DNA of 59,871 nt, filler included, from Catajapyx aquilonaris (lineage: Eukaryota), in the NCBI GenBank assembly GCA_000934665.2. It is 3 parts of 3 records of this genome, joined end to end, with 100 filler letters (N's around TTAATTAATTAA, not from the genome) between each part and the next. Parts side by side here need not be neighbours in the genome. Positions count along the whole stretch, not along the records: positions 39,992 to 59,871 come from KZ539525.1; 2 more parts are not named here. One strand, written 5' to 3'. The position numbers were made by a program, and so were the translations under genes. Below the pieces are notes generated by a model. It was not told where the DNA came from and did not search any database. It worked only from the letters and a program-made list of their open reading frames with translations. Position 1 is the stretch's first letter; each line of letters opens with the position of its first letter. Shown here one piece after another: positions 36,547 to 58,406 of the stretch.

Positions 36547-39183
36547 GGGCGCACGATCACGACGATTTTTCCCACTCGCGGAGGCCAAGTCGGGCCGAGG
36601 GACGGGTGCAGTGTTGTGTTCGCACCGCCGCACAGTGGGTTGAGAAGCCCGCGCAGCGCGAACAAATTCGCCTCTCATTTGTTGCACATCCGTCCTACTG
36701 AAATATTGTCCCATCAGGTTTTTTAGGTCATTTACGTCATTTATATTGGTTTGAAGATATTGGGTCGGCTGCTTGTATAGTAGCCTAAGTGGTGAGACCG
36801 TTTGAGGGTTGAAATTGCTTAACGAACAGCAAAAGTCAATGCTTGAGGGGTGTGCTGTGAAAGCTTCTTACTACCGCATTTGCTGCTCATTGCAGCTGAT
36901 TTAATTTGTAAAATGGTGAGGACAGTCTAATGGATCGCTTGCACCGAAGTGGGAGTCAGTGGTATGCGGTGGTATTTTTGCAGCTCACTTGGTTTCGCGA
37001 ACATGGTATACAATTGCACATTGGTGGGTATGATGTCGTTTCGTCCTTATTTTGGGGTCAAAGTTGAATATGTTGCATTTGCTTATTAGTGGACAATAGA
37101 GTGCAACTGGCAGGAACAGCATGCTCTGTTTCTGCATCTTTTAGGTACCGAATTGTGCCACGCAAATGATATCTTTCGTACGCAGGAAATGCTGTAGCTC
37201 ATATATGCTGGTACTTCAGGGGGTCGTGACACGTATGAAAGACTCTATGTGACGATTAATGTTATCAAATGAAATAGTCCATATTCATAACTGTAATGTC
37301 AGACTATGTTTGTGTGTTTTGCACCATGTTCGCGGAATCGAATTTGTTCGCGCTGCGCGGGCTTCTCAACCCACTGTGCGCCGATGTGGCCGTCTTGCTG
37401 GAGGTGCGGACCTGAAATTGTCACAGCATGGCGAGAAAGAGCCAATTGAGCCTCCCGACCAAGGCTCGATCAATTCGGATAATAATTGCGCGATCTAGAA
37501 GGGGAAGAGTTTTTAAAAAACGGGTCACGGCACTGGCTCAGGATGCGAATTTGGGAAGAATCTCGCTTTCTCACGATGGCCTTAGCCCTCCTCTTGCTAG
37601 TCCTCCAAAGTGCGATTTTTTGGGCCGGTGGTATTTGCGCAAGTAGACAAATCGTGTCACCCCCCCAACAAGTAAAATAGCCGGCAGAACTCGCTGATGA
37701 AGAGCGGTTGGTAGTGCAGCCGAGCCCCCCACCCCACCTCAACCCTACTCTCCACTTGCTGCAGGGGGGAACCGGATTGGGATGGTTTTTGGGCTAAAAG
37801 GGTATGGAGGGACGATGCCTGATGTTCTGCGTAATCGTGGAATGCATACCATAGAGAATATCACTGAATATGACTTACACATTATTTTCCCCGGCAAATG
37901 CATTGAAGCGCTGGCCAATGGATGGAACAAATCGACTTGCTTCTTGCGGAAGCGAATCACTGCTATTTTTACTATTTCCTTCCATTTTTGTTGGTGGTGG
38001 TGTTGTTGTTGTTGTTATTATTATTATTATGATCGTTAATGATGATGATGATGATGATGCTAATAATGCGGTCACTCTCATTGTACGCGTGGGACCAATT
38101 TTTCTGACCCATATGCAACAAAACTTGTCAATCGAGTTCAATAATCCTTATACCCCGGGGGTAGGTAAGTTGGGGGTCCTCCTGTCGCCTAAAGTGCTCC
38201 ACCCTTCGGCCCTCCAGGGCGATGTGCGGACCTTCCCAGATGTCATCCAAGTGTACGAGGTCATGGGCCGATGCAGAGAAAGGGAGCAATTAGCAGGAGG
38301 ACCACCAACTTACCTGCCCCCGGGGTATAAGGATTATTGAACTCGACTGACAAGTTTGGTTGCATATGCGTCAGAAAAATTGGTCCCACGCGTACAATGC
38401 GAGTGACCGCATTATTAGCATCATCATCATCATCATTAATGATCATAATAATAATAACACCACCACCACCACCACCACCAACAAAAATGGAAAGAAATAG
38501 TAAAAATAGCAGTGATTCGCTTCTGCAAGAAGCAAGTCGATTTGTTCCGTCCATTGGCCAGCGCTTCCATGCATTTGCCGGGGAAAATAATGTATAAGTC
38601 ATATTCAGTGATATTCTCTATGGTATGCATTCCACGATTACGCAGATCATCAGGCATCGTCCCTCCATACCCTTTAGCCCAAAAACCATCCCAATCCGGT
38701 TCCCCCCTGCAGCAAGTGGAGAGTATGGTTGAGGTGGGGGGGGGGGCNGGGGGGCCTCGGCTGCACTACCAACCGCTCTTCATCAGCGAGTTCTCCCGGC
38801 TATTTTACTTGTTGCGGGGGGTGACGGGATTTGTCTACTTGCGCAAAAACCACCGGCCCAAAAAATCGCGCTTTGGAGGACTAGCAAGAGGAGGGCTAAG
38901 GCCACCGTGAGAAAGCGAGATTCTTCCCAAATTCGCATCCTGAGCCAAGATGCCGTGACCCGTTTTTAAAAAACTCTTCCCCTTCTAGATCGCGCAATTA
39001 TTACCAGAATTGATCGAGCCTTGGTCGGGAGGATCAATTGGCTCTTCCTCGCCATGCTGTGACAATTTCAGGTCCGCACCTCCAGCGAGACGGCCACACC
39101 GGCGGTGAGAACACAACTCTGCACCCGTCCCTCGGCCCAACTTGGCCTCCGCGAGTCGGAAAAATCGTCGTGATCGTGCGCCC
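36547..39183. mobile_element. Large foldback Kolobok-like non-autonomous element (~0.9-kb inverted arms)
   Basis: TTAA-GGGCGCACGATCACGACG...CGTCGTGATCGTGCGCCC-TTAA. 36547-36630 plus 37384-~38180 pair with ~38290-39183; central spacer ~110 bp. Confidence 0.9.
36631..37378. mobile_element. Non-autonomous Transib-like element nested in the left arm of the foldback element
   Basis: Perfect 40-bp TIRs starting CACAGTG; 5-bp GC-rich TSD CGCCG (36626-36630, 37379-37383); absent from the right arm. Confidence 0.9.
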
Positions 39184-39891: not shown

Positions 39892-39991
39892 NNNNNNNNN
39901 NNNNNNNNNNNNNNNNNNNNNNNNNNNNNNNNNNNTTAATTAATTAANNNNNNNNNNNNNNNNNNNNNNNNNNNNNNNNNNNNNNNNNNNN
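39892..39991. other. Artificial contig linker (N run with TTAATTAATTAA)
   Basis: Same 100-nt design as 19882-19981. Confidence 0.95.
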
Positions 39992-42071
39992 CCTTCCGGC
40001 CCCGCCTGACATCATAAGGTGCCAGCGACTGGAAGAAATGAGGGCCAAGCTGTGTGACGAGAATGCGGATAAACACTTGGCTCACCCCAGGGCATGCCCA
40101 ACCCACTCAGCAGATTCCCCTGCAGTATGACCAAGACACAATGTGCAATTATGGGGCACCCACAGGGATGCTATGTACTATGCATTTCCTTACACCTAAC
40201 ACATCTATAGCCTACTTGTGCTTGTCACCTGCTCTATCCAAGCATATGATTACAACTCAAGAGCAAGGACCTCACAATGTCCACAGATTTCAATTGTGGG
40301 TTTCTAAATTGTGACTGAAACAGTCAAGTGACTTGCACATCATAGCACACTTTATGACACCATTCTGTCAGCCTGTGTATGGCAGCAGCAAAGCATGAAA
40401 CTTATTTATACCATACGAGCAATTCCATGATAATGTCAACCGGGCAGGGGTTTCAAAAAATTTATGGTAGGAGAAAATATATTGCTCTGTGAGTCAATTT
40501 GTTATATGAAAACACTGTTCTGGCAATTGACTCTGCGTAAGAAAGTGTCACAACCTCATAATTCGCAGGAATTTCATATAATGTAGTAAACCCCTTCCTG
40601 TAAGGCTGTTTTACTTATGTCCCGTCCCTAACACGCACAATAACCCTGCTGGTCCTCTTGTGTTATTTGAAAGTGGTCATTTAACACACTGGGTGAAAGT
40701 TCAGATCCTTCTTGTTCCCTGTGCCATAGGTATTACATTATCACTTGCATATTACATCGCAGGACCAGTGATCTGTCCCCGCTTGCACGTGTGATTGTCC
40801 TGTCCCTAACGCTGGAATTGCTCATACATAATGATCCAGATGATGGCTCTGGATAAGATACATTTTCTCACAAGTGGCACGTACCCGCATGCACCAAAAT
40901 GAGATTTAGAAATTGTACCAGAATTTTGAGGATCTAGGCAAGGTGAACACCGGGGTTTATGTGCTTGTGAGGAAGGTTATATTCTGCCTCAATCAGTGAC
41001 GCAAAGTTAAACCAGTATCAGTTAAGTACCGGTACCTTGTCCAGGAAAGAAAGACAGCCCATCTGCAATGAAAGTAGAAAAACCACAGTCATGCAGTCAT
41101 TGTTCTTTGCTACCAAGCCCACCTGCTAATTCAATGCTGTCTCACACATGATAACTTGATGATAAGCAACTGCACTCCACTCCTGCACGCCAACCATTAT
41201 TTCAAAGCTGCTGTCCTAATCATCATTGTTCACTTCAAGTGTTGGTTTTGTACTTTTGATAGCTTGTGACAGTAACAAATTTTATTACAATGCAACGTTT
41301 TCATAATTACGGAAATGAAAACAGGACGATGAATCATGAATGTCCACAAACAATAGGCCTACATAAATTTTTTTATCCTACTTTCCTTACATACACATGG
41401 GAATAATGTGATGCATTGTACAATAATTGTTCATGAATCAGGTTCTACTGGTACTTTTCACGGTTTTCAGGAGCTTATCTGCAACAATAACAACACAAAT
41501 CTACAGCTATAGCATTTGCTGAAGTAATTGCATACAATCACTTCTCAGTCTACCAATACCATCATATTATCATCATCCAAAACATCATAATGTTAGTAAT
41601 GGATTATATTGCTTGTAACATTTGATGTTAAGCACTTTATTATCATCACTAATTCCCAAGTTTATGTCTTGAAATGCTATGAGATCTGGCAACATATCAG
41701 TTACAATAATCAGATCCCAATGATGTGAGCAATGCAATGTGTAATGGGAGCTAACAAAACACTCCTATTAGTCGTATAGTAAGATACTTTGGACAGGTTA
41801 GGTTAGAATATTTTGTCCTGTGCAATTCAAAAATTCAGAACCAGACTCTCAACCAGAGTCAGTACACTACCCACATTTACAATACCGGTATTTATTGTTA
41901 TAAATTTCAGCAATCATGTAGGTTTCTTTTGACCATGTTGCTAGATTTTCTTAGGCACTTACTGTCATCAAAAGAAACCTCAACAATATGAATTAGCCAA
42001 CATGTCATCAGCTCTTGATATTGCTCATAAACACAGATGGGTGAACTCTGGTGAACTGCTGTTGGTGTTGC

Positions 42072-45000
42072 TTAGGCTGCTAACAGAAATGCCCCACGGC
42101 ATTCAATAGTCCTTGCCCAACAGCCTACATCAACCAAATCATGGAGTATCTTCTCTGTCACTTCTGAATTGTGCCTGAAATAGAAGTGGATATTTTAAAA
42201 TGGGTTCAAGCTTATCAAATGGTGTGCTGGCAAATGTAAGAGACATGGCATAAGGCAGGAGAGTTATGGAGAAGAATAAATAGGTGTCAAACGCTCTCTC
42301 ATGACATTTTGGCTTTTCATGTGGCATTATTACTATTGGTTTACCACTTGTGGATTGATGGCAGGATTCTAATTCCCTGCCTTTACTGAACCAATCACAA
42401 TAAGTTTGCATTTAAATACACTGACAACAGTTTGTAGCCACCAGCACATACATACTCGTATCAAAGCACCTTTTGTAGTAAGTTGCAATGTCAATCATTA
42501 CAACATGCTCCAACAGGTGCTAATATACACTTACCTATAGTCAGGATGGGTCCTCACAAAATCACGGATCCAGCGAGCAGTGGTTTTAGACTCGCCTGAT
42601 GCCCTCCTACGCCAGAGGCATAGATATGATTCCAACAGGTCCAAAGTTGCCATATCCAGTTCATTCTTCCAAAATTCAATCTCTTCCTTTATTATCCCAG
42701 CAAGTCCAGGAAAGCACACACATCCCTATATTCAGAAAGAGCATAAATCATTGTAGCTAAAAGTAGTAAGTGAGATAACTCTCAAAAGGGAACAATACCT
42801 TTATCCCATTAACAATCTGATTCACAGACATCAGATTCCAGTCTCTGTCATGGCTTACATCACAACTGATATTCTTCCTTGGTCCTAGAGGAAACCAAAA
42901 CAGTTCCCTCAAGACAGCATCTCTGATGGTAGCCCGACACATGTTATCATCCAAGAAACTAACAGGTACTCGGAAGTTTAAGTCAGGTCGGCGGAGGACA
43001 GCTCTGGACAAAAGAACGACCATGCTCATGAAGGCTGCATTTTCCACTTCACTCATCTGTGCTTCACAAGGCCGGAACTCAACACGCCATCCACACGACT
43101 GGCTCTGTCAAAATTGCATAAATGTTAGCTGCAAATACCGTAATATTTCCTACATGGCATGTGTAACTGCAGCAGTGTTGTTGAAAAGCACATGAGAAAA
43201 CAGCATGAGAGCTTCACCAGCAATATCAGTCATAATTTTGAATACAATTTTCCCCTTACCGGAGGTTTGAGACGCACTGTTTGGTAGCAAAAGCTCAGGC
43301 ATATGTCATGGAAATATCTGTCAGCATCACTTCCAGCACACTGCAGATAATGGTGGTGAAGCAGAAGTGGTGGTTGTGCTAATATGGTTGACACATGGCG
43401 GGCAAGAAGTGAATCTGCACCTCCACTCTCCATCTGGTGTCGAACGCTCTCCTCCACTCCTTCGTGTTCAGCACACTCCCACAAGTCGTTGAACCTTTCT
43501 GCTCCTTCTGACAAGTATCCACCAATGCTAGACACTCTAGGCCGACCAGAGAGAGTTGGCCGAGAATCAAAGGAAGATACTAACAGAGGCCACCGGGTAT
43601 CACTATCAAGAAGCATGCCCCGTAAAGCTGGTGAGGCTGCAGAAAGAGCCAGGAATATTGGCGCCATGGCTGCAAGCTGGTCATAGAGGCGTCTAGCTGA
43701 TGGGAAATCAGGTGCCTGGACTGTCACCTGCACGGCACATGCACTGGCACCCACAGCTGTGCCTTCTGCACATAACACCCCAGACGGAGCCCAACGTGGT
43801 GCTATTGGATCACGCCATGGCCATCGAGTCAGCCTGTCTCGAAACACTGGAAATGACACCATTGCTTAGATTACATGGTCATAAAGCCAATCACATACTG
43901 TTATGAAATACAGCATTCACAAATAGTGCCTCATACTGAGAATATACTGGCAGGAAAATGTGAAAATCCACAACATAAGTTACATGTTGCTGCAGTAGAT
44001 TAATCTTACAACACTCCCATTTCACAATAAACCTGATATGCTGTCTCAGAAATGTATTATGAGGTGGGGAAATTCCATACACTTTTTTTTGGTAGCCGTG
44101 CTTTCAATAGTCACTGCTGTAAATTCATTACTTTTTAATAGATGTTAAGCATGCATGTTAATTAAGCATTTACAATGCAGTATATTCCCTTCTTTTATCA
44201 TAACAAATATGTTCGCCCTCATCACTTTCAGCCAATGGCAATTGCCAACATACGTACAGGGTGGAAATGAATTAGGGGGGACAAACTTGTAGGGGTAATA
44301 GAGGGGACCAAGACAAACATATTTGACACAGGTACCCGTGATGGGAAACGCCATCTAGAGGGGGTTCATAGACAAGGAACGGGTGCGCTCAGACGTGTCA
44401 GGCGGGCGGCGTTAGCGAGCGGACCGTTTAGTTGCTAGGTGGCTCGCAGATTGTACACAACTCAGCAATTCGCAATAACCTGGCAACAACAGAGTTGTGT
44501 TGTTTATTATCTGCGCGCTACCTAGCATGCTGACTTTAGTTGTTAGGTGGTTCAGTTGTTGCCAGATTATGGCAAATTGCGAAGTTGTGTACAATCCGCG
44601 CTCCACCTAGAAACTAAACGGTCCACTCGCTAGCGCTGACCGCCTGAAGTGTCTGAGAGCACCCATTCCTCGTCTATGAACCCCCTCTAGATGGCGTTTC
44701 TGAACACGGGTACCTACGTCAAATATGTTTGTCTTGGTCCCCTCTATTACCCCTACAAGTTTGTCCCCCGAATTCATTTACACCATGTACATGGTATCAT
44801 CGATTCCTCTCAATTGTTGCTATAAAATTACATATCTGTGCACAACCAAAACTTTCATCTACAGTTAAACAAGACCCTACCAGTCTCAATCAGTGAGAAA
44901 ACTACGAGTTTTTCAGTCTCCCCACTCCTTGATGATTCCTCTCAGCCTCAGGGGATAACAATATTGTACCGTTCTTGAGAAGTCTAATGCAGAAAAATAT

Positions 45001-46499
45001 AGTCCAGCATGTAATTCCAAACTGACAGCCATTTTAAAACTGAGATGAATGTGCTGTGCAAGATGCCCTATGTACAAAATTGTCCCAGTTCATCTTACCT
45101 GGAAGCATGACACATGGAGTATGTCCTTTGCTTGTTTGTATTCCTCTGGTGTATGCAGAATATCTGGTTGACCCTCGATATATGACCTGATCAGAGATGT
45201 TTCTCAGTGCTTCATCACTGGTGCTTGGAGTAGTAAAATTCTGGCAGCCCAATCTGTTGAAATGGTGTTATACTTGGAAACTAATACAACTGTACTTTGT
45301 TCATCTCACCTGGGAAAGAGTGCAAATGCAACCAGCCTATGATTGCCATCCATGATTTCTTCAGCTTGCTTTCTTCTAACCAGCATTGTGGACTCCATAG
45401 AAACAATATCAGAAATGCCTTTAAATGGTTGATCAGGCATTGACTCCAGCATATACTCCGCAAACTCGGGCTGCCACGAGCCACCACCTCTGTATAAATT
45501 CAAAAATCAACAGTTACAGAAAACTTGGCCCACTATCTTATCATGTCCGTTAGAACCAGGAAGTGCACTTCACCTTATTCAGTGTAACTGAAATGTATGG
45601 GAACAGATGGGAACACAATGTTCCTCATATTTGTTTTATTTAGCTCTCCTGAGTATTAAAAGTTACAAAATGCATACTATCCCTTTAAAAAGTTTCAATC
45701 AAACATACCCTGATATAATTCAACCACCAGCATTGGTTGAGGTAAAGTCTGTGGGGGTGAAATGCCCCACTTTACTGCTGGTAGTATAGTTCCAGGATAT
45801 GTCTGGTCAGATATTTTTCAAGTTTTTAAACTCTGGAACCATACCGTGGGGTCATTTAGGACCCCATCCATATTTTAATTTTTATTAATTTTATGTAATA
45901 CTTTTAAATGTATTGACTATATGCAATCATTCTTTGAACAATGCCAAAATGATCACTAATGCAAAATAAATATGCACTTACTGTTATATACTTTTTTAAA
46001 TGGAAACAGTTCATTGTAATTACCATTTTAATGCATTTTAATTCCTTTGGGGTCCTAAAAGGTTCCAGTCATGGTTCCAGGGTTAAATAATCTTTTTTTA
46101 AATTATTTTTACATGAAGTACATGCTTGATCACTGCACACTTCACTTTCTAAGTAAGGTCACAATTAATACAGCCCCACAAGGGCACTCACAATTTGTTC
46201 CCTCTTCATACATTTAGAAGCACAAAAACTTAGCCATAGGTTAATCTCAATGTAACCTCTTACTTGTTCAAGGCAGGAAGCAAATTGCTGGCATTGAGGG
46301 CCAATTTGACCTCCTTTTCTGCAAAATCCAGATGCACGATGAGGTGTTCCAATTCATACCCAAACTGAAAAGGGTATGGCTGTCGATCTTGCTTCAGCTG
46401 ACGTAAAAAATGAGTCGCTGCCCTCCTGGCCACCAGTCCATGAGCCTGTTGCACCTGACTCCAGTCATTCAGGGGCAAACCTTCCGCCTCAACCCCCAT
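42072..46499 (-). CDS. Divergent glutamate-cysteine ligase catalytic subunit-like paralog; exons 46499-46264, 45489-45310, 45253-45099, 43846-43260, 43104-42799, 42725-42535, 42174-42072; ~585 aa
   Basis: One open frame across GT/AG junctions (1758 nt), collinear with [99 protein letters not shown]. The end of the last exon is less certain. Confidence 0.85.
44257..44787. mobile_element. Palindromic Tc1/mariner-type MITE in intron 3 of the GCLC-like paralog
   Basis: TA-CAGGGTGGAAATGAATT...AATTCATTTACACCATG-TA, with ~230-bp inverted arms. Confidence 0.9.
45831..46082. mobile_element. piggyBac-like MITE
   Basis: CTCTGGAACCAT...ATGGTTCCAGGG termini next to TTAA-like sites; internal taggacccc/ggggtccta inverted pair. 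Confidence 0.6.
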
Positions 46500-47154
46500 C
46501 TCTCTAACGTGCCACTGTTGTATGAGCACATGCACCTTCTGCTTAAATCCTTTACCCAGGTTGGCCCTGCCAAAAAATTTTCCCCCTTGGGCCAAGGACG
46601 CTCCCTGCATAACCACACCAGTGAAAACCAGTTGAGGACCATATCTACAAAAAATGCTTTAGGGAATGGAATTGTTTTGCATATTTTTTGTCACCCGAGA
46701 TGCTCAGTGCCCTCCCATTCATAACTCTTTATTTCATGGCTCACTTTCTCCTACTTTACACGTGCCTGCCTCAGGTTACAAGTCAATAGCTCAGGTCAAT
46801 GGCCAAGACGGCACTAACGTTTATGTGTTAATCACTGGGTAACACTTCAATTTTATAAAGGATCAAGTCAAATGTCAAATCAAGTCAAATGTCAAATGTG
46901 ATTAAAAACCATACAGCTTTTTGAATGCAATTTAATCAAGGAACAACCAAGCAGGTGGCTCCTATTTTCAACAAATCAGGTGAATGCAAATCAAACAACA
47001 ACAACCAACAATAGCAATGCATAATTTCTGTTTGTCCTAAAAGGTGGAATGCAAGTTAAGTAACATTGGCCCATTTAATCTTGTTTCCTCATGTCCATGT
47101 GAACAGTGTAAGGCAAACAGGTGGAAGGAAAAATCCTGAAAGAATTGTCAAGTG

Positions 47155-50100
47155 CTAGTCTCCACCATTGCACTCTGCTGCCATGGTTATGGTTGGTACA
47201 GAGTTCCTGGTCTTGGATTTAAGTGCTGTCCCTAGAAGATCTGGACATGGAATTTCCCCTCGTTCAATCTGCTGTGATGTCACAATCAAGTCATATGTTA
47301 TCCTGTCCGACACCACAGAATCATTCCTAAAAGGATGATCACAACAGTTAATTAAGGGGGTTTTATCTCTGCAGTTGTCAGTAACTCAGAGAAAGAATCT
47401 GTTAATTGTCCACAAAAAGAATGAACCACTTCATACAGTCATATCAATCATCCCAGGCAGGGCTTCCCTGCCTCCGTAACCATCCCCCCACCCCACCCCC
47501 ACCTGTTACTCCATTATTACTCCTCCTGAATAATATGGGTTAATCATTGCAGACTACCAAAGTCTGCCTTTAAAAACCATTTGATGGATTCTCAAGATGA
47601 CTGAAAATTCTGTTATCTAAGTGTAACAATGTGTAACATATGCAGCAGCTATCAATCCAAGCAACTAACACAATACCAATGTTCAAAACTGCAATGCCGT
47701 TCACGTCATTAAGGACCAGGTCTATGAAGACAAATGAGGGACAATCTCCAATACGTACAGGTATTCACAATATCATTTTGAAGCAATTGGATACTTCCTC
47801 CATACTGGAGTTGATACAACCATCCCTAAAGGCTCACCCACAAACAGCAGGAAGTAAGAAAAAGCATGCTTGCATGCTCTGTCCTGAGAGGTAAGGGGGG
47901 AATCATTCCAGCCACTGCAAGAGAGAATGGATCTCACTAAAATGGCCCAGAAACAGAACATACATGTCTGTGGCACTGAATGTTTGCACCTGCACTCTCA
48001 TCAATGACAGGCTGGTCAATCAGCTCCTTTCCTGGCCACCAATCATGCATAGTGGGCTCAAGCACCCAACTTCTATAGCCACTGCTGCACTGCAACACCT
48101 ACCCACCAGACCCCTGTGTCCCTAAAGGCAAAGGCCCAAACACCACCCCCTCAAACAAAACATTTTGCCAGCCAGCTTTTTCTCACCTCCTGCTTCGGGG
48201 TTGTGCAAATACCACGTGACTGTNNNNNNNNNNNNNNNNNNNNNNNNNNNNNNNNNNNNNNNNNNNNNNNNNNNNNNNNNNNNNNNNNNNNNNNNNNNNN
48301 NNNNNNNNNNNNNNNNNNNNNNNNNNNNNNNNNNNNNNNNNNNNNNNNNNNNNNNNNNNNNNNNNNNNNNNNNNNNNNNNNNNNNNNNNNNNNNNNNNNN
48401 NNNNNNNNNNNNNNACACACACACACGTGAAAAGGGGGGAGGGGGAGCTGGGGGGTTCCAATGGATACCATGGTCGGTCACTGGGGGGAGGGGTCAAAAA
48501 GTGGCCTAAAATCGGTCTCGTGGTATTTGCACGGCCCCTTACCTGCAAATGAGCCTTTACAGAAGGCCTACTGCAGCTATTGTGCACACAGTCATAAACT
48601 TTATCAAGTCAACATATATTGTTGAGGTTTCTACCTCTGAAACTCTCTGCCAATTGAGCAAGCCATTATTATTAAAATTAGAGTGATAAACTCATTTAGA
48701 TGCCAACTATACAGTGTACAGTATTACAGTAATAACTTGTACATCGGAAAAAAAAATCCCTCTCCAAGTACTACAAGATTCAGTCAATTGAAAGTGGACT
48801 GGTCAAATGTATATGGCCTAAGTAATAATAAAACAGGAGTTACAACCTCATCTTCATGTTCACTAACCTGTATTGTGGGTGCTTGACCACAAAATCCCGT
48901 ATCCACCTAGCACAGGTCTTCAGCTCCCCAGAAGCCCGCTTCTGTATGAGCGCTAAATATTGCTGTATGGTGCAATGTGTATCTGCATCGACATCCATGG
49001 AACTTAAATAGCTGTGTATGAGTGGGACCAGCCCAGTGAATCCATCCTCCTGACCATTCACAATCTCATCCAGGCTCATTTCTATAAACTCTTTGGGATT
49101 TATCTCTTCCCCTGAATACTCGCAGGAGGCAGCGCAACAGCAAGAAGAAGCTTCAGGAGGGCTCCTCCCTGTGAGGATGTCCCTACGGAACCAGAATTTC
49201 TGAGTACGGAGAGCATCTTTGCGCTGGGCCCTCTGCATGTTTTCATCCACCAGGCTGATGGGCAGCAGAAAGTTCAGGCGGTAGGAAAGAACCACACGTG
49301 TCAAGAGCACCACAAAACACACCAAAGCAGCATTTTCAAAATCTGTCAACTGGACCTCACAGGGGCGGAACTCCACACGCCATCCTATAGCTGGAAAACA
49401 AGAAAACAATTCATATCAGCGGCAGCCACAAGTTTCCTATGGTGTAAGGAATCAAGTGGAGGGCAGAACAATGTGATTCACTGGAGAACAGTATTCACAG
49501 TATGTGTTCTGTGCAAGGGGGTTCTATCAGCATAAGGAAATTGGAATACAGGATAACGCAACATTTTCATCTTTCAAGTCTGCCTAGTTACACATGATTG
49601 TATAACACAGTTATGAGCATCAGGAAGTTGGCAAATTTTTAGGCAGAAAAAATGCATCCTTACGTTGGTCTGGAGGTGGAGGCTTGAAGCGCATGGTCTG
49701 CCAATTGGTGGATTGCAGATTCTCAAAGTGGTCTGTATCCTTAGAATCATCTTGCTCCACCTTCTCTGTGAAAAGTGACACAGGATCTCTGATGAAAAGA
49801 TGTGCCACATGCCTGGCCAGGGACTCCTCTATTCCTTCTGATAGTAAGTGCTTCAGTGTTGCCTCATCAAGTACCAATGGAATGTCATTGTACCTGAAAT
49901 GACACTGGCGAGATTCTCAATTCTCATGTACTCAATATTCACCCCCTTAGATCAGCAAAAGTGAAATATTAATATCAGACCATGGTCATTGTGTGAGAAT
50001 TAAAAACAGTAAGATTGGCTTTCACAAAACATATCTTCAATCATTTTAAAAATTAAGTCGTATGCATTACCAAAAACTCTTACCGTTGCCCCTCAGGTGA

Positions 50101-53100
50101 GAGGTATGAGTCAATAGAATCATATCTCGACTTGTATATGCGACGCTCGCCTGGCTTCAGTGGTTCCAAGCCCCTCTCCGCAGCAGTGCGGCAGTCAACA
50201 GATGCAGAAATCACATTCCAGCGACAATCCACATCTGCCAAGAGGCCTCGGTGAATTGGAGATGCTGCTGTCAAAGCTAACTAGGATGGCAAAAAAAAGC
50301 CAGATAACTTTTCTGTCCTGAATTTTATCTCAAGTTTTTATGCCATACGGTACCATTATGGGACAGAGTGGAGCAAGCTGGTCATACAAGGTCATTGCCT
50401 CTTCAATGTTGCATGCCTGTAAAAAATGAATAGAAACCTTTTCAAAGCAAAGAAATTTCCTCAACCAATTCCTAATCGACTGAATTCACATGTGCAATTA
50501 CCAGGTCAAGTTGACTTAGTTACCAGGTTGGCTTACGTGGTTTTGAGCATGCAGAGGCTACTCAGTTGTAGGGCATACACTCTGGACCAAGGCAGTTCAT
50601 TACAGGTCAGGGAGGTACATATTCAGGTCAATGTCCTCTGTCAATACCATATAAAAACCTTGGCCTCCTTCTTTTGCAATTCAAGTTTCTCTGAGACAAA
50701 AAAAACTAATGTCACACCCTTCCCCTCTCCTTTTTTATACCCATTTTTTTCACCAGTTATTTAATAAAACCATTCCACCCAGCCTTCCTCTGCACACCTG
50801 CATTTCTTATGCCTCACATACTAGTCCTTAGGAGGTGCTCAGAATGTGATTTCCACCAAGGATTTATTTGATTTTTCTCTTACAGAGCAGCTGGCAAATG
50901 AAGAATATGTGATAGATAACAGTTTAAGGCAAAAAAACATGATCATGTGAATGGGGGAAAAAAATCAAACGTAATAATTCCACTAAATTTGAAATCACAC
51001 AAAGGACCATTTTCAAGGTGTGGCTGTGAGCTAGGAGAAATTCCAGTCTATTTTAAGCTGTCACCTGGAAAGTAAGCTGTAAGCAGCAGCATCCCATTCC
51101 AAATCCCATTGCATCCATGTAGATGTGATCAGGTAGTGCTGCCCTTTGACTCTCTCCATTCACATCTCCAACCTTGGCCAGGTCCTCTACATATGGACTG
51201 GGAGTCTGGCTGTCCTTGAATACTGTGGAAATAATAACCAAAGGTACACATGTCAAATGCAAGGTCACTGGCAGGTTTCCCTTCACCCTATTTTCTCAGT
51301 TTCTGAGAACTGTTTCTTCAAGAACCAACACACCATTTCATGGAACTAATTCTTCCTCTATGGTAATTTTTATGTTATCTATTGTGCAGTCACAGGGAAA
51401 TACACTGTACTCCCAATTATCGAGGCTAATGGCACAGGGTGTCGTCGGATAATCAGAAAACGCAGATAATAAAAAAATGGTCCTAGATACAAATAAAATG
51501 AGCATTCTCCGGTTTTTAATGAACGACTGTACACACTGTATTCTGCTGCTTTAAATAAGATTTAATCAAAATTAGAACAATTTCCATAGATTTTAGTTTG
51601 TCTTCGTGAAAAAGTCTTAAATTTCTATGTTTGTGAGAAAAATTTGCATTTTTTTCGACTGTTCTTTGCTTTACTCATGCATGGACAATAATCCTCATAA
51701 TCGGGATCATCGGGAGTACAGTGTATTATATTACATCTACAATTATGTGACCAAAATAGGTCCTAATAATATTTACATTAGCACAGCAACAAAATTTCAG
51801 ATTGTAACCCTAATCATCATTTCATTTGGAGAAGTAAAAGCAATATTTCAATCTTTTAATTACAATTTCTAATTTTTAAAAAAACATAGGGAAACTCAGG
51901 TGCACACTGCAAATTTAATGCAAATTCAAATATGTTGTGAGTGCTTGCATATCTTCAATACCTACGCTAATTCTTCGAGGGAAATAAACAATCAGTGAGT
52001 AATGACAGGTTTCCGACAATAAATGATAATTCAAACTGTGCTGTAAAAATGGGTGATTAATTGCAACTTCACATGTTCACTTTAAAAAACAGGAGGCACT
52101 TGACCTCCTTAACAGGTATGTAGCACAGACCTTTATTTATACCATTGTAGTTCGATACATATTAGAACCTTGAAAGAAGCACCCGAGCCCACGGTCAGGG
52201 TGACTGGGAGGGGATGTGCAATGTGCAATGCAATGTCTCAAACGGTACATTTTGTGAACTCCCCCGGGTGGATTAGTCTAGCCGAGATTCCATCCGAGAC
52301 AAAGCCAGAGACGACCCAACTCTGCACGAGATGAAGGGGGAGACCCCGGGCTGCCATCCAACCCTTCCATCCATGGGCGCACATGCACGTTACCGTAGCA
52401 CCACTCCGCCTCCCCTAGAACTAACATTTAACTACGTGTTATGCCTCTGAGGCTTCCCTTGAGTTAGATTGGTCAGATATAATATACTATTCTAATAATA
52501 ATAATAATTGATACCCAGTGATAGACCTCCATGAGCCCTTTTAGGGGATCATCTTTTCTATAACCAACTTTAATCATTGTCTGTACTGTGATGGGTTTTG
52601 ATTGTGGGAGGAAACAGGAGAGCCCCGAGAAACCCACGCAAACAAGGAGAGAACCCATTGAAACTCTATCCACATAAGTATCCTCTGTCCGATCTGGGGA
52701 TTAAACTCAGGACCTCAGAGGTGGAAGACTGTGGCTCTAACCACTACACCACCTAGAATTCAAATGGAGTACCACATCAAGTTATTTGAAGTCGAATCAT
52801 AACTTCATAGTATTCAAGAGGTATCCAATATATCTGCAGGTGCATGGTCAATTTCCCCAAGATTACTCGTTCTGTTCTTCTGTAACATAAAGTATGGCCA
52901 CTGTAAGTCTGAACTGACATGCAGGATTCTATGAGGGAGGAAGGGTAGAGTGGTGGTTCCTTACAACAAATTCCAGCATACCATACCCAACACCAACCTT
53001 CCAAACAATCCCTTCTTCCCCCTCAATCTAGATCAGCATTTCTCAACCTGGGTTCCGAGAGAAATGGAGTAGTGACAAATAGGCTAATCATATGAAGCCC

Positions 53101-54828
53101 TTTTGGCAAAAAGGGCACACGTCACTCTTCTGGAATATTCGAGTTATCATCACTAGGTGGCAGGGGGGATTGTTTCTGAGGTCCTGAGAAAAGTGTACAT
53201 CAAAAGGGACATTTGTCACAGCTGAAAATAGGGTTTGAAGATTAGGCTGTTTTGTAACAAGGGCACATGTCAGTGCGTCGGGTTGCATATTATCAGCATA
53301 AAGGGCACTTGTCATTGACCAAGTTGTGCGCTTTTCTCAATTTTCTCCATTCCATTTCCTCCTGACATGTGCCCTATTTGCCAAAAGGGCTTCATATGTA
53401 AAGGTATTCCGAAGCAGTAGTGGAGTAGTGGTATGGTGTCCGACTGCTAATCGGGAGGTCCTGGGTTCGAATCCCGGAGGCCGGCGACCATGACCATGGT
53501 TTTCTGTGGTTTCCCATGGTCCTTGCAGGATAATTCCGGGGTGGTTACCGTAATATAGGCCACAGCCGCCTCCTTCCTTCCCTTTCCCTGCTTCATTCCG
53601 GTGATGAGAAAAATAGTAAAAATGGAAGAGTTCCAGACAAAAAATTGGGAGAAATCCCCCCCTAGGAAAGCCTGTAGGCTGATAATGGGGTATCAAATTA
53701 TTATTATTATTATTATGTAAAGGTATTCTCAAATAAAATTGTCTGATGGAGGATGTGTCAAATGACATGTCCACTGGTCATGCTAAAACTATGAATGATT
53801 GTGCAGGGTATTCCAAGTAAGTGGGTTGCATTAGTTATAGAAATAGCTGGTTATTTTTTGTAGCTTTTTGCGCCCCGATCCAGGTGTCCTATTATACGAG
53901 GTGCTAACTCAAAAGTTTGCGAACTTATATTCCCCCGAAAAAATTAGCTTATGACACACCTTATTTTCCTCCATCACCTTCGAAGTAGTCCCCTTTCCAA
54001 CATAGATAGTGATCCCAGTGCTCTTCCCATGATTTGAATGTTTTGTGGAAGTCATTATTTGTTAGGGCTCTCAGCACCGCATGCGATTCTTTGTGAATCT
54101 GGCTTACAGGGTTAAATCTTCTTCCTTTCAGCTTAATTTTCATTTTCAGGAAGAAAAAGAAGTCACATGGAGCTAAATCTGTCGAAAAATCCAGCACGAC
54201 ACAATCGTCATGTTGTGGGATGCCAAAACTGCTGTGCGGCAAACAGTGTGAGTCAGCATGCTGTCATGATGTTCTCGTGCCACTTTGCGAGGTGTTTCCT
54301 TCAAATGTCCTCCCTCAGCTGCCTTTTTCACCAGATTTAGCTCCCTGCGACTTCTTCGTCTTCCCAAAAATGAAAATTAAACTGAAAGGAAGAAGATTTG
54401 AGAATAATTTCACACACTTTTTCGGGGGTTGTGCTCGTTAAAGGACAACCAGAATGTTGTCATTTTCACTTGAAATGTGGCCATCTTTGAACTGATTATA
54501 CTACTTGTAAGGGGAGGCAGAGTGGTGCTGCGGTAACGCACGTGCCCACAGATGTTAAGGTCCCGGGTTCGATCTCAGCCCGGGGACACCCCCTTCATCT
54601 CATGCAGAGTTCAGGGTCACCTCTGGCTTCGTCTCGGGTGGTATTTCCACAGACTAAACCACCCGGGGGAGTTCACTAAAAATGGCCACAGCGTCAGATG
54701 CACTGCACCTTGCACATCCCCTCCTGTCATCCTGCCCGTGGGCCCGGGCAATACGCTATGTACTGTACAACTAATTAGCAAAAATAAAGGTCTGTGCAGA
54801 TACCAATAAGGTGAGCACTATACCCAAC

Positions 54829-54870
<42 letters not shown>

Positions 54871-54874
54871 TATA

Positions 54875-54922
<48 letters not shown>

Positions 54923-57900
54923 CTTGTATGTAATTGGTTTCCCTAAAGCATTGCCACCAAATGCATTTTGTAGCATCTTGTAAGTTTGCAGCACTTTTGC
55001 CAAGTTTGAAATGAAACCTTGATGCTGTTCTTTCAGGTCGTCAATTTTCACCCCCAACAGAATTGCAGAACGCACCAAACACAATGCTACAAAACAGCCC
55101 ACAGAAACTGATCCATTCAACCTCAGATGCTGCCACTTCGCAGAACAGTTCAGAAAGGTCACCTGCAGCATTACCTAGAGTGGTAGCGACACACTAGATG
55201 CGGTTAAAAATTATTGGCACCAGTTCACAAACTTTTGGGTAGCACCTCATATGTATAGCAATTGTTATATTATTCAACCACCTGGGAATAATTGAGCACC
55301 TGGATTGAGTTGCAAAAAGGTATAGAAAAATAACTACATCTGGTGATATTAGCGATAACTAAAAACGATCCTGATGCTAGGAACACTGGGTATTCTCTTC
55401 CCACCCCTTCAGTCACTCCATAAATACATGCTGATTGAACTCTATGCTGTATCATTAGAATGCCCTGATCATTTTGAGTAAGAACCTGTACACCACAATG
55501 ACTCATAAAAACTCACACTACATATTATATGTTCAGACTGACTTGCAGAAATCCTGCGTTCCTCACGTCAGAATGTACTTGTGCAACTGCTAAGGCAGTG
55601 CTTCCCATTCTTTTTAGTTGGCGACCCTAGAAAATCGTCTTGTAAAATTCTCGACCCCCACAGATGTGTACATTTTGATTCCCTAACATTAAAAGATGGA
55701 TAAACTGTGAAATGAAAATCATTGATAACTGTTGTCGAGTATCTGAACTGTTCTGTAACTTATCTTATTTATGGGCATAATTTTCAAGAGAGAAGTAGTC
55801 ATTTGTTGAAAATAACTTGTTACCCTCTCTTGTGACAGCAATGGTTTGGGAAGCACTGTACTATTATTTCTCCTTCCGTCTGTTCTGGAGGTAGCCTCTA
55901 ACACATCACAATAGTAATAGTACAAGGTCAATTTGAAAAGTTTTGCCTCCTAGGTGATAATTTCAATCATACACAAGATAATCACGTAAACTGTACAGTA
56001 TGTCTGATGAAAGCTTGGAATGTCGTCTATCAGGGAGACTCATTACTTCGACACTTATTGATAGTCCCCATCCCTGTCCACAAGCATGCACCAACGTCGG
56101 ACCAATTGTTGAATCCCATCAGATTAGAAATCAGGCGTCTTCTACCGGCACCAGTGATGCACATCTGGTTGCACCTCCGCATCACTGGTGTAATGGTGTC
56201 TAGGGGTGGCAATCCTGTGCGGGACATGTCCCCCACAGTATTTGGGAAGGGGGGGACGCTTATGGTATCATCCCCCACAAATTTTCGTAAAATTTACATA
56301 CAGCCGGGATCTCTCACCTTGCAACTTTCTCTTTTTCTCAAACCTGAAAGAACACCTGAAGGGACACCATTACACCAGTGATGTGGAAGCAACCAGATGT
56401 GCATCACTGGTGCCAGGAGAAAACGCCTGATTTCTTGTCCAATGGTATGCATCAACTGGTCCAACGTTGGAGCATGCGTGTGTGGATAGGGATGGTGACT
56501 ACGTAGAAAAGTAATGAAACACCCCTGGTAGAGGACATTCCAAACTTTCACCAGACGTACAGTTTACATGATCATCTTCCATATTATTGAAATTATCAAG
56601 TAGGAGGCAAAACATTATAAACCAACCTCATAGTAGTAGCAGCAATAGGCCTACTAGTAGTAATAATAATGTTACCCCATAATAAGCTTCCCACCTGTTT
56701 ATAGGGGCTCCTACTTTAATTCCATACATTATTCATTCAAACTTAGTGGTGATTAATTCCTTTCTACTAAGAGCTCACCCCTCTCATGCAGCCTGGGAAT
56801 CCCAAAATTGAACTAACAAATAAAAATCACATCACTCACATGGAATATTGATAGCCACCTTTTCTCCACGCCTCTCGCGGATATTTTGAGAGAGAGTAGC
56901 AAAACGAGGGTGTCCTGGGAATATGGCTTCATCAGGGAAGAATAGCGAACGTGTAACTCCTTTTTGAGGGGTAGGCTTGTAGGATGGAGCCGTGAAGTCT
57001 GGGCAGCCAAGTCTGAGAGTTAATGTAATAAATGCATGAACATTATGAGAATGAGGTCTTCTTTTTTTAAAAATGTCCTGTCATGCATGTAAATGATGAA
57101 TATTTCAATTATTTGACAACTAGCAGTAATAATGGGTGACTAAAAATGTCTTCAAGTGTGTGGAGCATGAGTAAAATGTTTATAACTCTCTCCTAGTCTG
57201 CCTCCCTCTTAAATGCACTTGTTCAATCAGATTGCATAATTATAGCCATATACGGTAACAAGAAAAACAAATACAATGATGGGCCTATGGGGCTTGTGTC
57301 ACTCAACTATGCTGACCTTGGGAAGGATGTCAGGGTTAGCAGAACTTCATCTGGCTCCAACAATTTCTGTACTTCTTCCCGGCGTGCCCTCATGTTAGCC
57401 TCCACAATGTTGAAATGGGCTAGAAGTCCTCCATATGGTTTCCCTGGAGTACCCTCCACCATGTAAGCACCATACTCTGGTCTCCAGAGGGATGCAACTC
57501 CACTGAAAATATGCACTTAATTTCACTCTTTTGCAACCTTTGTTTTCACTGAGTACACAACAGAAAGTGTAAATCCTAACACCTCAAAAATACCAACTAT
57601 GAATACCCTACCTAAAATTTTCTTCATGTGTCATGCAAAATATCAGATAAGGAAAGTACATTTTATAATTCATGATTCATCCCCTTTAGGTCAAAACCTA
57701 GGTCCTTTTCAATATATGACCACAATCAGAAAGACAAAAAGAGAGAAACGATTGTACTTTTTTCACATGTGAATCCTCTGTCCAATCCTGGGATTTTTTT
57801 TACAATTACAACATCCAGACATTCCAGAGCATACTTCTTATCAGCATATATAATGTTGTATAAAGCATATGAGTGCATTATCAGAAAAGCACTTTGACAG

Positions 57901-58112
57901 GAAATAGGATTAGACAATGCATGTGACTACACTGTATGCAATAAATATATCATTTCAACAGCTGACATTTCATTAAAAAGTTCCTCACTCTACAACAGGC
58001 CTACAGGAGTTAAGAAAGGTCTATGTGATGCCTCATATGATGGCAGCATTACCCACATTATTCATATCCACATTCATGTTCACGTTACTCACATGATTTA
58101 TATTCACATTCC

Positions 58113-58176
<64 letters not shown>

Positions 58177-58406
58177 GAGCAGCAGTACTACAGAAAAAAG
58201 AAGACACCTGATGAATAGAATACAGTATTTATCAAAAATGACAATTACAACAGCAATCACATAACAAGTATTACTTCATGCACACCAACAACTCACTTTG
58301 GATCCTGCAATTCCTTTTTACGTAGGACGTCTAGGATCTCTTTGGCTCGTAAACTCACTTGAGCCTTCATGGCTTGTCGATCAAGCTTCACCAACACATA
58401 CTCCAC
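47155..58406 (-). CDS. Gclc: Glutamate-cysteine ligase catalytic subunit (canonical), 5'-partial; exons 58406-58297, 57502-57317, 57012-56840, 51222-51065, 50416-50354, 50280-50084, 49893-49664, 49390-48868, 47326-47155
   Basis: [129 protein letters not shown]. Phases are consistent (1812 nt). Exon 1 was not found in the window. Confidence 0.97.
48197..48538. mobile_element. MITE spanning an assembly gap (N 48224-48414)
   Basis: ggggttgtgcaaataccacg ... cgtggtatttgcacggcccc imperfect TIRs on either side of the gap. Confidence 0.6.
51403..51723. mobile_element. Tigger/pogo-like MITE
   Basis: TA-CACTGTACTCCC ... GGGAGTACAGTG-TA. Confidence 0.8.
52094..52415 (-). mobile_element. tRNA-derived SINE family A, copy 3
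   Basis: Head and body homologous to the copies at 29790, 31424 and 54511; B-box region degraded. Confidence 0.85.
52492..52754 (-). mobile_element. tRNA-derived SINE with a V-domain-like core (family C)
   Basis: Head GGTGGTGTAGTGGTTAGAG...GAGTTTAATCCC, followed by GTTCTCTCCTTGTTTGCGTGGGTTTCTCGGGGCTCTCCTGTTTCCTCCCACAATCAAAAC; (ATT)n tail. Confidence 0.75.
53409..53713 (+). mobile_element. tRNA-derived SINE family B, copy 2
   Basis: Near-identical to 35938-36228; TSD tatgtaaaggtatt. Confidence 0.9.
53897..55249 (-). mobile_element. Rearranged mariner remnant with an internal inversion and an inserted SINE
   Basis: TIRs CGAGGTGCTAACTCAAAAGTTTG / CAAACTTTTGGGTAGCACCTCA. The C-terminus [22 protein letters not shown]...GDYFEG is on the minus strand, with an inverted duplicate ([16 protein letters not shown]) on plus at ~54320-54400. 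An N-terminal remnant lies at ~54930-55040. Confidence 0.85.
54511..54920 (+). mobile_element. tRNA-derived SINE family A, copy 4
   Basis: Same head and body; (AAT)n(ATT)n tail; TSD-like tacttgta. Confidence 0.9.
55923..56630. mobile_element. Foldback mariner derivative made of two inverted 3' ends
   Basis: ~270-bp inverted arms with TA flanks; the right half encodes [22 protein letters not shown] (a YSPDLAPxD-type mariner C-terminus). Confidence 0.85.
58113..58176. repeat. (ATT)n microsatellite
   Basis: About 21 consecutive ATT units. Confidence 0.95.

What the first reader, a model, noticed from the sequence alone, without database searches (positions are those of the whole stretch)
42072..46499. 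Tandem GCLC paralog with catalytic core kept and cysteine pocket rebuilt: candidate new gamma-glutamyl ligase
Seen, by comparison with the neighbouring canonical Gclc: the putative metal/ATP/Glu residues are retained (ELE for EVE; PEF...MLE for PEY...MVE; VQVTVQ for LQLTFQ; DTRW for DCRW; WRVEFRP unchanged). The acceptor-side motifs are replaced: [16 protein letters not shown]>LCAEGTAVGASACAVQ, HPRF->STRY, KSRYDS->[16 protein letters not shown]>DICLSFCYQT. The 7-exon frame is intact. Established (recalled from the yeast GCL structure): the glutamates, Gln and arginines bind Mg/Glu/ATP, while the Met/Cys/Phe/Tyr/Trp residues line the cysteine/glutathione site; animals usually have a single GCLC. 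Inference: an old neofunctionalised enzyme that ligates glutamate to another amine or amino acid, or a feedback-insensitive or regulatory subunit.
Basis: partly seen in the sequence, partly recalled or inferred. Interest (0 to 1): 0.8.

Follow-up and report, generated by a model that had tools for sequence, protein, structure and literature searches.

The report
Divergent expressed tandem copy of Gclc
Right behind an arthropod's normal glutathione-synthesis gene (Gclc) lies an old, intact, spliced second copy that keeps the ATP and metal chemistry but has rebuilt substrate pockets, so it probably joins different substrates, still unknown.

Summary
On the minus strand at 42072-46499 there is a 7-exon, 585-aa gene with six GT-AG introns. 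It starts 655 nt downstream of the stop of a canonical Gclc on the same strand. The two copies are 38% identical (195 of 517 aligned residues). Three intron positions match exactly, so this is a DNA-level tandem duplicate, not a retrocopy or a fungal transfer.

The copy is not decaying. It keeps the consensus residue in 31 of 31 near-invariant family columns but only 28 of 141 variable ones. None of 1000 neutral simulations kept the frame open. Contigs of one public run join exons 2-3 and 3-4 exactly at my splice sites.

All metal, ATP and gamma-carboxylate residues are kept. Trp445 becomes Tyr, Cys264 and Cys266 become Ala, and most of the 254-267 loop is replaced.

No ortholog was found among 1.84 billion representative proteins. 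Val362 with Tyr445 recurs only in a small fungal paralog group, apparently by convergence.

Best reading: an active ligase with changed specificity. No substrate is shown. It is a new variant of a known kind.

The parts
46264..46499 (-). Paralog exon 1: ATG at 46499, residues 1-78 plus 2 nt. Holds the GYELEH motif (yeast Asp49 to Tyr; Glu50 and Glu52 kept).
   Evidence: donor AA|GTAAGA, phase 2. The N-terminus aligns with GCLC N-termini.
45310..45489 (-). Paralog exon 2: WQPEF..YMLES, with yeast Glu96 and Glu103 kept.
   Evidence: acceptor ..tacag|, donor AG|GTGAGA, phase 2; contig record 6 joins 45310 to 45253.
45254..45309 (-). Intron 2, 56 nt. It is removed in a contig of run X1.
   Evidence: table 5: joint 45253->45310, ends CT..AC (GT..AG on the minus strand).
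45099..45253 (-). Paralog exon 3: LGCQNF..STRY.. It has HPRF changed to STRY and NIRxRRG changed to GIQTSKG.
43847..45098 (-). Intron 3, 1252 nt. It is removed in a contig of run X1 and contains a foldback repeat.
   Evidence: record 3 (333 nt, 0 mismatches) joins 43846->45099; inverted arms 44276-44493 and 44552-44769 are 89% complementary.
43260..43846 (-). Paralog exon 4, the catalytic core. It holds the rebuilt 254-267 loop, Gln268 and Arg313 (kept), RPRVSS (Tyr362 to Val), CYQT (Trp445 to Tyr) and Lys451 (kept).
   Evidence: PF03074, E 2.8e-31. Searches give the yeast numbering; records 2 and 3 match with 0 mismatches.
42799..43104 (-). Paralog exon 5: GWRVEFRP, with Arg468, Glu470 and Arg472 kept.
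   Evidence: PF03074, E 5.7e-25; record 1 covers 42804-43088 with 0 mismatches.
42535..42725 (-). Paralog exon 6: ..[25 protein letters not shown].
   Evidence: PF03074, E 5.2e-13; donor AG|GTAAGT, phase 2.
42072..42174 (-). Paralog exon 7 with the TAA stop at 42074-42072.
   Evidence: In one search, the bin 42072-42219 has depth 2.24.
46500..47154 (-). Intergenic spacer of 655 nt between the canonical Gclc stop and the paralog ATG.
47155..58406 (-). Canonical Gclc, the tandem partner. Its nine exons in the window are 58406-58297, 57502-57317, 57012-56840, 51222-51065, 50416-50354, 50280-50084, 49893-49664, 49390-48868 and 47326-47155. Exon 1 lies outside the window.
   Evidence: It is 71% identical to a mayfly GCLC and sits inside the insects in the tree.

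Best explanation
The locus is a functional, transcribed, very divergent tandem duplicate of the animal's own Gclc.

It keeps the machinery of the glutamate-cysteine ligase family. Three Mg2+ ions are held by five glutamates (a sixth near-invariant active-site residue, Gln268, is also kept). ATP is bound by Lys451. The substrate's gamma-carboxylate contacts Arg472, and Arg313 and Arg468 are kept as well. It should therefore still phosphorylate a carboxylate with ATP and pass the acyl group to an amine.

The residues that read the rest of the two substrates have been replaced, mostly by smaller side chains:
- Tyr362 to Val (glutamate alpha-carboxylate)
- Trp445 to Tyr (backbone carbonyl of the cysteine moiety)
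- Cys264 and Cys266 to Ala
- Met255, Met258, Phe260 and Met262 to Ala, Thr, Val and Ala

The most likely result is a ligase that no longer makes gamma-glutamylcysteine efficiently and instead joins a different, probably bulkier, donor and/or acceptor.

Shown here: the gene structure, its origin by duplication, selection on the sequence, splicing into RNA, and which residues are kept or changed. Inferred: that it is catalytically active, that its specificity changed, and that the pocket is enlarged. Unknown: the substrates.
For: 1. Structure and origin.
- The gene has 7 exons and all introns are GT-AG.
- It is a head-to-tail neighbour of the canonical Gclc.
- Three introns sit at identical position and phase inside conserved motifs: FPR|LGC, IP.|F[KR]D and DYR|.
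- A fourth has the same phase in a gapped region, and a fifth is one codon off.
- Overall identity is higher to animal GCLCs (0.38-0.40) than to fungal ones (0.33-0.38), especially outside exon 4.

2. Selection.
- The consensus residue is kept in 31/31 columns that are at least 98% conserved, 49/67 at 90-98%, 64/124 at 70-90%, 34/110 at 50-70% and 28/141 below 50%.
- 0 of 1000 neutral simulations keep the ORF.
- dN is 0.66 against a saturated dS of 2.68.

3. Expression.
- Contigs of run X1 join 43846->45099 and 45253->45310 exactly at my introns 3 and 2.
- They match exons 2-5 with 0 mismatches.

4. Residues. Numbering is, states, contacts from the PMC5613772 table.
- Kept: E50, E52, E96, E103, Q268, R313, K451, R468, E470, R472.
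- Changed: Y362V, W445Y, C264A, C266A, D49Y, and 12 of the 14 residues from 254 to 267.

5. Recurrence.
- Val362 together with Tyr445 occurs in only 3 of the 293 database proteins aligned: P0021 (Cyphellophora europaea), P0022 and P0067.
- These three also share M258T, M262A, G263S/T, C264A/G, C266A/S, Thr312 and K359R with the paralog.
- They are nested inside filamentous-fungal GCLs with support 99*.
- Similar pocket changes therefore arose independently, which argues for selection rather than decay.
Against: - No substrate, activity or protein is shown.
- No ortholog was found. The best of 810 hits among 1.84 billion representatives is 40% identical over the full exon-4 query (the highest figure listed, 47%, is a 159-aa fragment). 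Every one of the database proteins that matched both copies (169 compared) scores at least as well against the canonical copy (highest ratio 0.98). Current purifying selection therefore cannot be measured, and the gene may be confined to one poorly sampled lineage.
- Five further highly conserved residues are changed, and I do not know their roles: NIRxRRG to GIQTSKG (N176G, R180S, R181K) and FIRDP to LAQPP (R348Q, D349P). Either change could impair catalysis.
- Many divergent GCL paralogs change the same conserved columns (overlap p from 1e-7 to 1e-4 for at least 12 proteins). Part of the 'convergence' may simply reflect the least constrained conserved sites.
- Run X1 is of unrecorded kind and also holds some intron sequence. 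One contig runs 35 nt past the exon-2 acceptor into intron 1.
Confidence: 0.55

Rival explanations
1. It is still a glutamate-cysteine ligase but with altered kinetics or regulation. It could be insensitive to glutathione feedback, independent of the modifier subunit, or specific to a tissue or stress.
For: The full catalytic set is kept. Glu96, which contacts the amino group of the cysteine moiety, is kept, and Trp445 to Tyr keeps a hydrogen-bond donor (contacts). From recall only, not from any call: Tyr362 moves when glutathione binds in the yeast enzyme, so Val there could relieve feedback inhibition.
Against: 12 of the 14 residues of the 254-267 loop are changed, along with Tyr362, Trp445, Ser360 and Asn444. 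Among the 294 other aligned rows these positions are mostly 85-97% conserved. Loss of the Tyr362 contact to the glutamate alpha-carboxylate should weaken glutamate binding itself.
Confidence: 0.2
2. It is a non-catalytic or regulatory protein. It could be a pseudoenzyme that binds the modifier subunit or the canonical GCLC, or one that senses a ligand.
For: The branch is very long, 2.0-2.7 substitutions per site. The conserved NIRxRRG and FIRDP motifs are changed. The C-terminus is about 25 residues shorter than in the neighbour.
Against: Pseudoenzymes usually lose metal and nucleotide ligands. Here 31 of 31 near-invariant columns, which include all of those ligands, are kept.
Confidence: 0.12
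3. It is a copy that has recently lost its function and is decaying, with an ORF that is open only by chance.
For: No ortholog is detectable, so selection cannot be tested in the present.
Against: 0 of 1000 neutral simulations keep the frame. Retention follows site conservation. All 12 splice dinucleotides are canonical. Spliced contigs exist.
Confidence: 0.08
4. It was acquired from a fungus by horizontal transfer. It shares WPWRDP, DTRW, RxRVSS and the Val362/Tyr445 pair with filamentous-fungal GCL paralogs.
For: The top hit for exon 4 is the fungal protein P0021. The motifs are shared. The AU test does not reject a clade of the paralog with the fungal group (lnL 12.5 lower, p 0.233).
Against: Three introns share exact position and phase with the adjacent animal Gclc, and the gene lies next to that homologue. 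Outside exon 4 it is closer to animal sequences, for example 45-50 of about 90 residues in exon 5 against 30-36 of about 82 for the fungal group. The tree with the paralog held inside Metazoa is 1.6 lnL units better than the free tree and about 14 units better than the fungal placement.
Confidence: 0.03

Closest known systems
Eukaryotic glutamate-cysteine ligase catalytic subunit (GCLC / yeast Gsh1; Pfam PF03074; PDB 3IG5, 3IG8, 3LVV, 3LVW)
   Same: It has the same family domain. The yeast enzyme is the only solved relative found. The Mg2+ ligands E50, E52, E96, E103 and E470 are kept, as are Q268, R313, K451, R468 and R472. Gene structure is shared with the neighbouring canonical copy.
   Different: It is only 38% identical to its neighbour, whereas that neighbour is 64-71% identical to the 21 best-scoring database GCLCs, those with names being insects. 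Changes are Tyr362 to Val, Trp445 to Tyr, Cys264 and Cys266 to Ala, 12 of 14 residues in the 254-267 loop, NIRxRRG and FIRDP. It also has several deletions and a shorter C-terminus.
Fungal divergent GCL paralogs with Val362 and Tyr445: P0021 (XP_008720478, Cyphellophora europaea, 'uncharacterized protein'), P0022 and P0067
   Same: They share the Val362 plus Tyr445 pair, Thr312, Arg359, Ala262, Ser/Thr263 and small residues at 264 and 266. P0021 is of similar length at 578 aa; P0022 (426 aa) and P0067 (419 aa) are shorter, probably partial records.
   Different: They are nested in the filamentous-ascomycete GCL clade (99*). Overall identity to the paralog is only 33-36%. The resemblance is therefore convergent. 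Their function is unknown, and I found no paper on them.
Other animal 'GCLC-like' paralogs: Mytilus galloprovincialis XP_076117635 (P0141) and Tachypleus tridentatus XP_076326354 (P0024)
   Same: They are extra, divergent GCLC copies in invertebrates that keep the catalytic residues.
   Different: They form their own group as sister to canonical animal GCLC (SH-aLRT 87-88). Their branches are much shorter (0.7-1.1). Their pocket states differ: Mytilus has Trp362 and Trp445, and Tachypleus keeps Tyr362 and Trp445. They are 39% identical to the paralog, no closer than canonical GCLCs are.

Membership tests
GCS superfamily (Pfam PF03074, glutamate-cysteine ligase family 3) | Profile match above the curated cut-off | tested here: met
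   exons 4, 5 and 6 score 109.6, 88.9 and 49.5 bits against a cut-off of 25.
GCS superfamily (Pfam PF03074) | Mg2+-binding glutamates E50, E52, E96, E103 and E470, plus Gln268 (yeast numbering) | tested here: met
   all six are kept. Their roles come from the PMC5613772 contact table for the five glutamates; the role of Gln268 is recalled.
GCS superfamily (Pfam PF03074) | Nucleotide and gamma-carboxylate contacts Lys451 and Arg472, with conserved Arg313 and Arg468 | tested here: met
   all are kept.
Bona fide glutamate-cysteine ligase (EC 6.3.2.2), GCLC orthologue | Tyr362 hydrogen-bonding the glutamate alpha-carboxylate | tested here: not met
   It is Val in the paralog. Tyr is found in 250 of the 294 other aligned rows.
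Bona fide glutamate-cysteine ligase (EC 6.3.2.2), GCLC orthologue | Trp445 contacting the cysteine moiety | tested here: not met
   It is Tyr in the paralog. Trp is found in 275 of the 294 other rows.
Bona fide glutamate-cysteine ligase (EC 6.3.2.2), GCLC orthologue | Conserved YMDxMGFGMGCxCLQ loop with active-site Cys264 and Cys266 | tested here: not met
   12 of the 14 residues from 254 to 267 differ, and both cysteines are Ala.
Bona fide glutamate-cysteine ligase (EC 6.3.2.2), GCLC orthologue | Groups with animal GCLC orthologues in a tree | tested here: inconclusive
   The end branch is 2.0-2.7 substitutions per site and the placement is unresolved. AU tests do not reject Metazoa (p 0.569), sister to the neighbour (p 0.109) or the fungal group (p 0.233).
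Bona fide glutamate-cysteine ligase (EC 6.3.2.2), GCLC orthologue | Makes gamma-glutamylcysteine and is inhibited by glutathione | not testable with these tools
   This needs an enzyme assay.

The most novel reading that the evidence does not exclude
An animal has turned a spare copy of its glutathione-synthesis enzyme into an ATP-dependent ligase for a different product, such as a gamma-glutamyl conjugate of a bulkier amine or amino acid, or a donor other than free glutamate. It reached similar pocket changes (Val362, Tyr445, small residues at 262-266) to those that fungi reached independently. That would define a recurrent, uncharacterised specificity class within the GCL family.
Probability: 0.4. 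Interest if true: 0.7.

Novelty: new variant of a known kind. Interest (0 to 1): 0.5.

Why it matters
GCLC is treated as a single-copy, single-function, rate-limiting enzyme in animals. Here is a selected, expressed paralog with intact chemistry and rebuilt pockets. It points to an unknown small-molecule product in an arthropod. The fungal, mussel and horseshoe-crab 'GCLC-like' proteins suggest that the family has repeatedly produced new ligases that nobody has assayed. The short list of recurrently changed positions (254-267, 312, 359-362, 444-445) gives a concrete, testable specificity code for the family.

Tried and rejected
- Whole-genome search: no genome is held for this window.
- Earlier findings by place, sequence and words: nothing relevant.
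- Sequencing runs: no RNA holder is listed. Only one run (X1), of unrecorded kind, was found. When it was laid, the bins over exon 1 had no cover and those over exon 6 next to none (0, 0 and 0.14). I draw nothing from that.
- The two JBC yeast-structure papers are not held, by DOI or by PMC id. Residue roles therefore rest on the contact table of PMC5613772 (passages only) and, where I say so, on recall.
- Literature searches for divergent or duplicated animal GCLC found nothing relevant. One search was a syntax error and was corrected.
- A first FastTree of 139 rows placed the paralog with other long branches, P0103 and P0066. I treated this as long-branch attraction and rebuilt with a mixture model, without those rows.
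- A metagenome scan for the genomic context of the fungal Val362/Tyr445 group returned only relatives 31-38% identical, not that group. I did not pursue it.
- Pfam scan of 106 of the 184 window ORFs of at least 75 aa: no GCLM-like or glutathione-synthetase-like partner gene.
- The spliced 585-aa protein could not be given to the structure tools, which accept only contiguous translations. No 3D model or pocket geometry was made. 'Pocket enlargement' is inferred from side-chain sizes only.
Full report
WHAT IS THERE

Reading the minus strand of 42000-46750 and assembling exons in a script gives a 7-exon gene. The exons are 46499-46264, 45489-45310, 45253-45099, 43846-43260, 43104-42799, 42725-42535 and 42174-42072. 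All six introns are GT..AG and the phases are consistent. The CDS is 1758 nt, giving 585 aa and a TAA stop. The finding's coordinates are exactly the ATG and the stop. Pfam GCS (PF03074) matches the ORFs of exons 4, 5 and 6 at E 2.8e-31, 5.7e-25 and 5.2e-13. The ORFs of exons 1 and 2 match no family.

A canonical Gclc lies directly upstream on the same strand. I placed nine of its exons, from 58406 to 47155, using tblastn with a beetle GCLC and splice-site inspection. Its first exon is not in the window. The paralog's ATG is 655 nt downstream of the canonical stop. The two proteins share 195 of 517 aligned residues, or 38%.

ORIGIN

The paralog's introns 2, 3 and 6 lie at the same residue and phase as canonical introns, inside well-aligned motifs: FPR|LGC (phase 2), IP.|F[KR]D (phase 1) and DYR| (phase 2). 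Intron 1 has the same phase in a gapped region. Intron 4 is one codon off. Intron 5 is unique to the paralog. The canonical gene has three more introns inside the stretch that forms paralog exon 4.

By my own rough estimate, there are 8 canonical introns among about 1650 possible positions, so three exact coincidences by chance are below 1e-5. This marks a DNA-level duplication of an intron-bearing animal gene, not a retrocopy.

The canonical copy is 71% identical to a mayfly GCLC and 64-69% identical to the other 20 best-scoring database proteins, of which the named ones are insects. It sits inside the insects in the tree, with support 97* and 95*. The host is therefore an arthropod, probably a hexapod, of a lineage not present in the protein collections.

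IS IT ALIVE?

Three lines of evidence say yes.

1. I built an alignment of 293 database proteins plus the two window proteins. The paralog keeps the consensus residue in:
   - 31 of 31 columns that are at least 98% conserved
   - 49 of 67 at 90-98%
   - 64 of 124 at 70-90%
   - 34 of 110 at 50-70%
   - 28 of 141 below 50%
2. I mutated the canonical CDS neutrally until protein identity fell to 38%. An open frame survived in 0 of 1000 runs, with a mean of 18.8 stops. NG86 gives dN 0.66 and dS 2.68. dS is saturated, so the copy is old and the ratio is only indicative.
3. The one public run that holds the stretch is X1 (kind not on record, 0.25 of the sampled words). It contains contigs that join 43846 to 45099 (skipping 1252 nt) and 45253 to 45310 (skipping 56 nt), with CT..AC ends. 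These are exactly my introns 3 and 2. Its pieces on exons 2-5 have no mismatches.

Two caveats apply to the third point. The run also holds some intron sequence, and one contig continues 35 nt upstream of the exon-2 acceptor. A processed DNA copy elsewhere in the genome cannot be formally excluded.

ACTIVE SITE

Yeast numbering was transferred through HMMER alignments to 3IG5. Contacts are from the table comparing the Leishmania and yeast enzymes in PMC5613772, which I saw only as passages.

Kept:
- Glu50, Glu52, Glu96, Glu103 and Glu470 (three Mg2+ ions)
- Gln268
- Arg313
- Lys451 (ADP phosphate)
- Arg468
- Arg472 (glutamate gamma-carboxylate)

Changed:
- Tyr362 to Val. This residue hydrogen-bonds the glutamate alpha-carboxylate.
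- Trp445 to Tyr. This residue hydrogen-bonds the carbonyl of the cysteine moiety.
- Cys264 and Cys266 to Ala.
- Asp49 to Tyr. Only its backbone contacts ADP.
- 12 of the 14 residues from 254 to 267, mostly to smaller side chains.
- Ser360 to Pro and Asn444 to Cys.

Of the columns that are at least 90% conserved, 18 are changed. These also include NIRxRRG (N, R, R to G, S, K) and FIRDP (RD to QP). I do not know the roles of those two motifs.

The chemistry-bearing residues are therefore intact while both substrate-reading regions are rebuilt.

RELATIVES

An exhaustive phmmer search with exon 4 against 1.84 billion representatives found 810 proteins at E up to 1e-3 and none at E up to 1e-30. The top hit is 40% identical. 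Full-length blastp against the 168 proteins then held gave at most 36% identity. I then compared 169 proteins (the 168 plus P0291) with both window copies. Every one that hit both copies scores at least as well against the canonical copy as against the paralog, with a highest ratio of 0.98. No orthologue group is detectable.

The top hits include named divergent paralogs:
- Cyphellophora europaea XP_008720478
- Aspergillus ambiguus XP_073543036
- Tachypleus 'GCLC-like'
- Mytilus 'GCLC-like'

The combination of Val362 with Tyr445 occurs in only three of the 293 database proteins: P0021, P0022 and P0067. These also share Thr258, Ala262, Ser/Thr263, small residues at 264 and 266, Thr312 and Arg359 with the paralog. 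That group is nested within filamentous-fungal GCLs at 99*.

The paralog is closer to animal than to fungal sequences outside exon 4. With the intron evidence, the resemblance is best read as convergence.

This convergence should not be overstated. Many divergent paralogs change the same conserved columns, with overlap p values from 1e-7 to 1e-4. These positions are general hot spots of the family. Only the Val/Tyr pair is specific to the fungal trio and the paralog.

PHYLOGENY

The paralog's end branch is 2.0-2.7 substitutions per site, and it joins other long branches or sits unresolved. AU tests on 37 rows and 630 columns give:
- Paralog within Metazoa: 1.6 lnL units better than the free tree, p 0.569.
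- Paralog with the fungal Val/Tyr group: 12.5 lnL units worse, p 0.233.
- Paralog as sister of the neighbour: 11.4 lnL units worse, p 0.109.

None is rejected, so the tree cannot date the duplication.

SURROUNDINGS

Pfam on 106 of the 184 window ORFs of at least 75 aa found no GCLM-like or glutathione-synthetase-like partner gene. It found a tubulin, a THAP domain, PWWP/PHD exons and mariner remnants.

VERDICT

The locus is most likely an active ATP-dependent carboxylate-amine ligase derived from Gclc, with changed donor and/or acceptor recognition (confidence 0.55). The rival readings are:
- A kinetically or regulatorily altered GCL (0.2)
- A non-catalytic protein (0.12)
- Recent decay (0.08)
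- Fungal transfer (0.03)

I found no paper on divergent animal GCLC paralogs. It is a new variant of a known kind, of moderate interest until a substrate is found.

Noticed in passing
window 44254-44790 (inside paralog intron 3): A foldback, MITE-like element. Its arms at 44276-44493 and 44552-44769 are 89% complementary. This stretch and 45772-46067 in intron 1 have very high depth in run X1 (up to 112), so both are repeats.
   Followed up: partly
window 16552-17998 (+): Two ORFs carry a tubulin GTPase domain (E 2.5e-29) and a tubulin C-terminal domain (E 3.9e-14). This is a tubulin gene; I did not determine which kind.
   Followed up: no
window 27513-28160 (-) and 34499-35878 (-): PWWP and PHD (NSD-like) exons, and a 460-aa ORF with a PWWP domain. 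The 460-aa ORF contains a direct internal duplication of about 40 residues (..YIRQERK.LEERLR..GEWVPEYGSNN..), seen.
   Followed up: no
window 32256-33520: Mariner-type transposase remnants: Transposase_1 at E 1.9e-7 and HTH_48 at E 4.6e-5. A THAP-domain ORF lies at 23598-24053 (+).
   Followed up: no
window 37701-38910: A large inverted duplication. ORFs on opposite strands encode nearly the same peptides, for example RISLNMTYTLFSPANA.KRWPMDGTNRLASC at 37855-38340 (+) and 38261-38617 (-).
   Followed up: no
window 19882-19981, 39892-39991, 48224-48414: Runs of N, which are assembly gaps. The 191-nt gap at 48224-48414 lies in the last intron of the canonical Gclc.
   Followed up: yes
paralog exon 4, about 43780-43800 (residues TRWPWRDP): The motif WPWRDP is identical to that of filamentous-fungal GCLs, including the canonical Erysiphe enzyme (P0004) and P0022. 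Animal GCLCs, including the neighbour, have TPSP[FY].. at this place. I treat it as convergence, but it is unexplained.
   Followed up: partly
proteins P0141 (Mytilus) and P0024 (Tachypleus): Other invertebrates carry divergent 'GCLC-like' paralogs. Together with P0148 they form a group that is sister to canonical animal GCLC (SH-aLRT 87-88). This may be an older, uncharacterised animal paralog family.
   Followed up: partly
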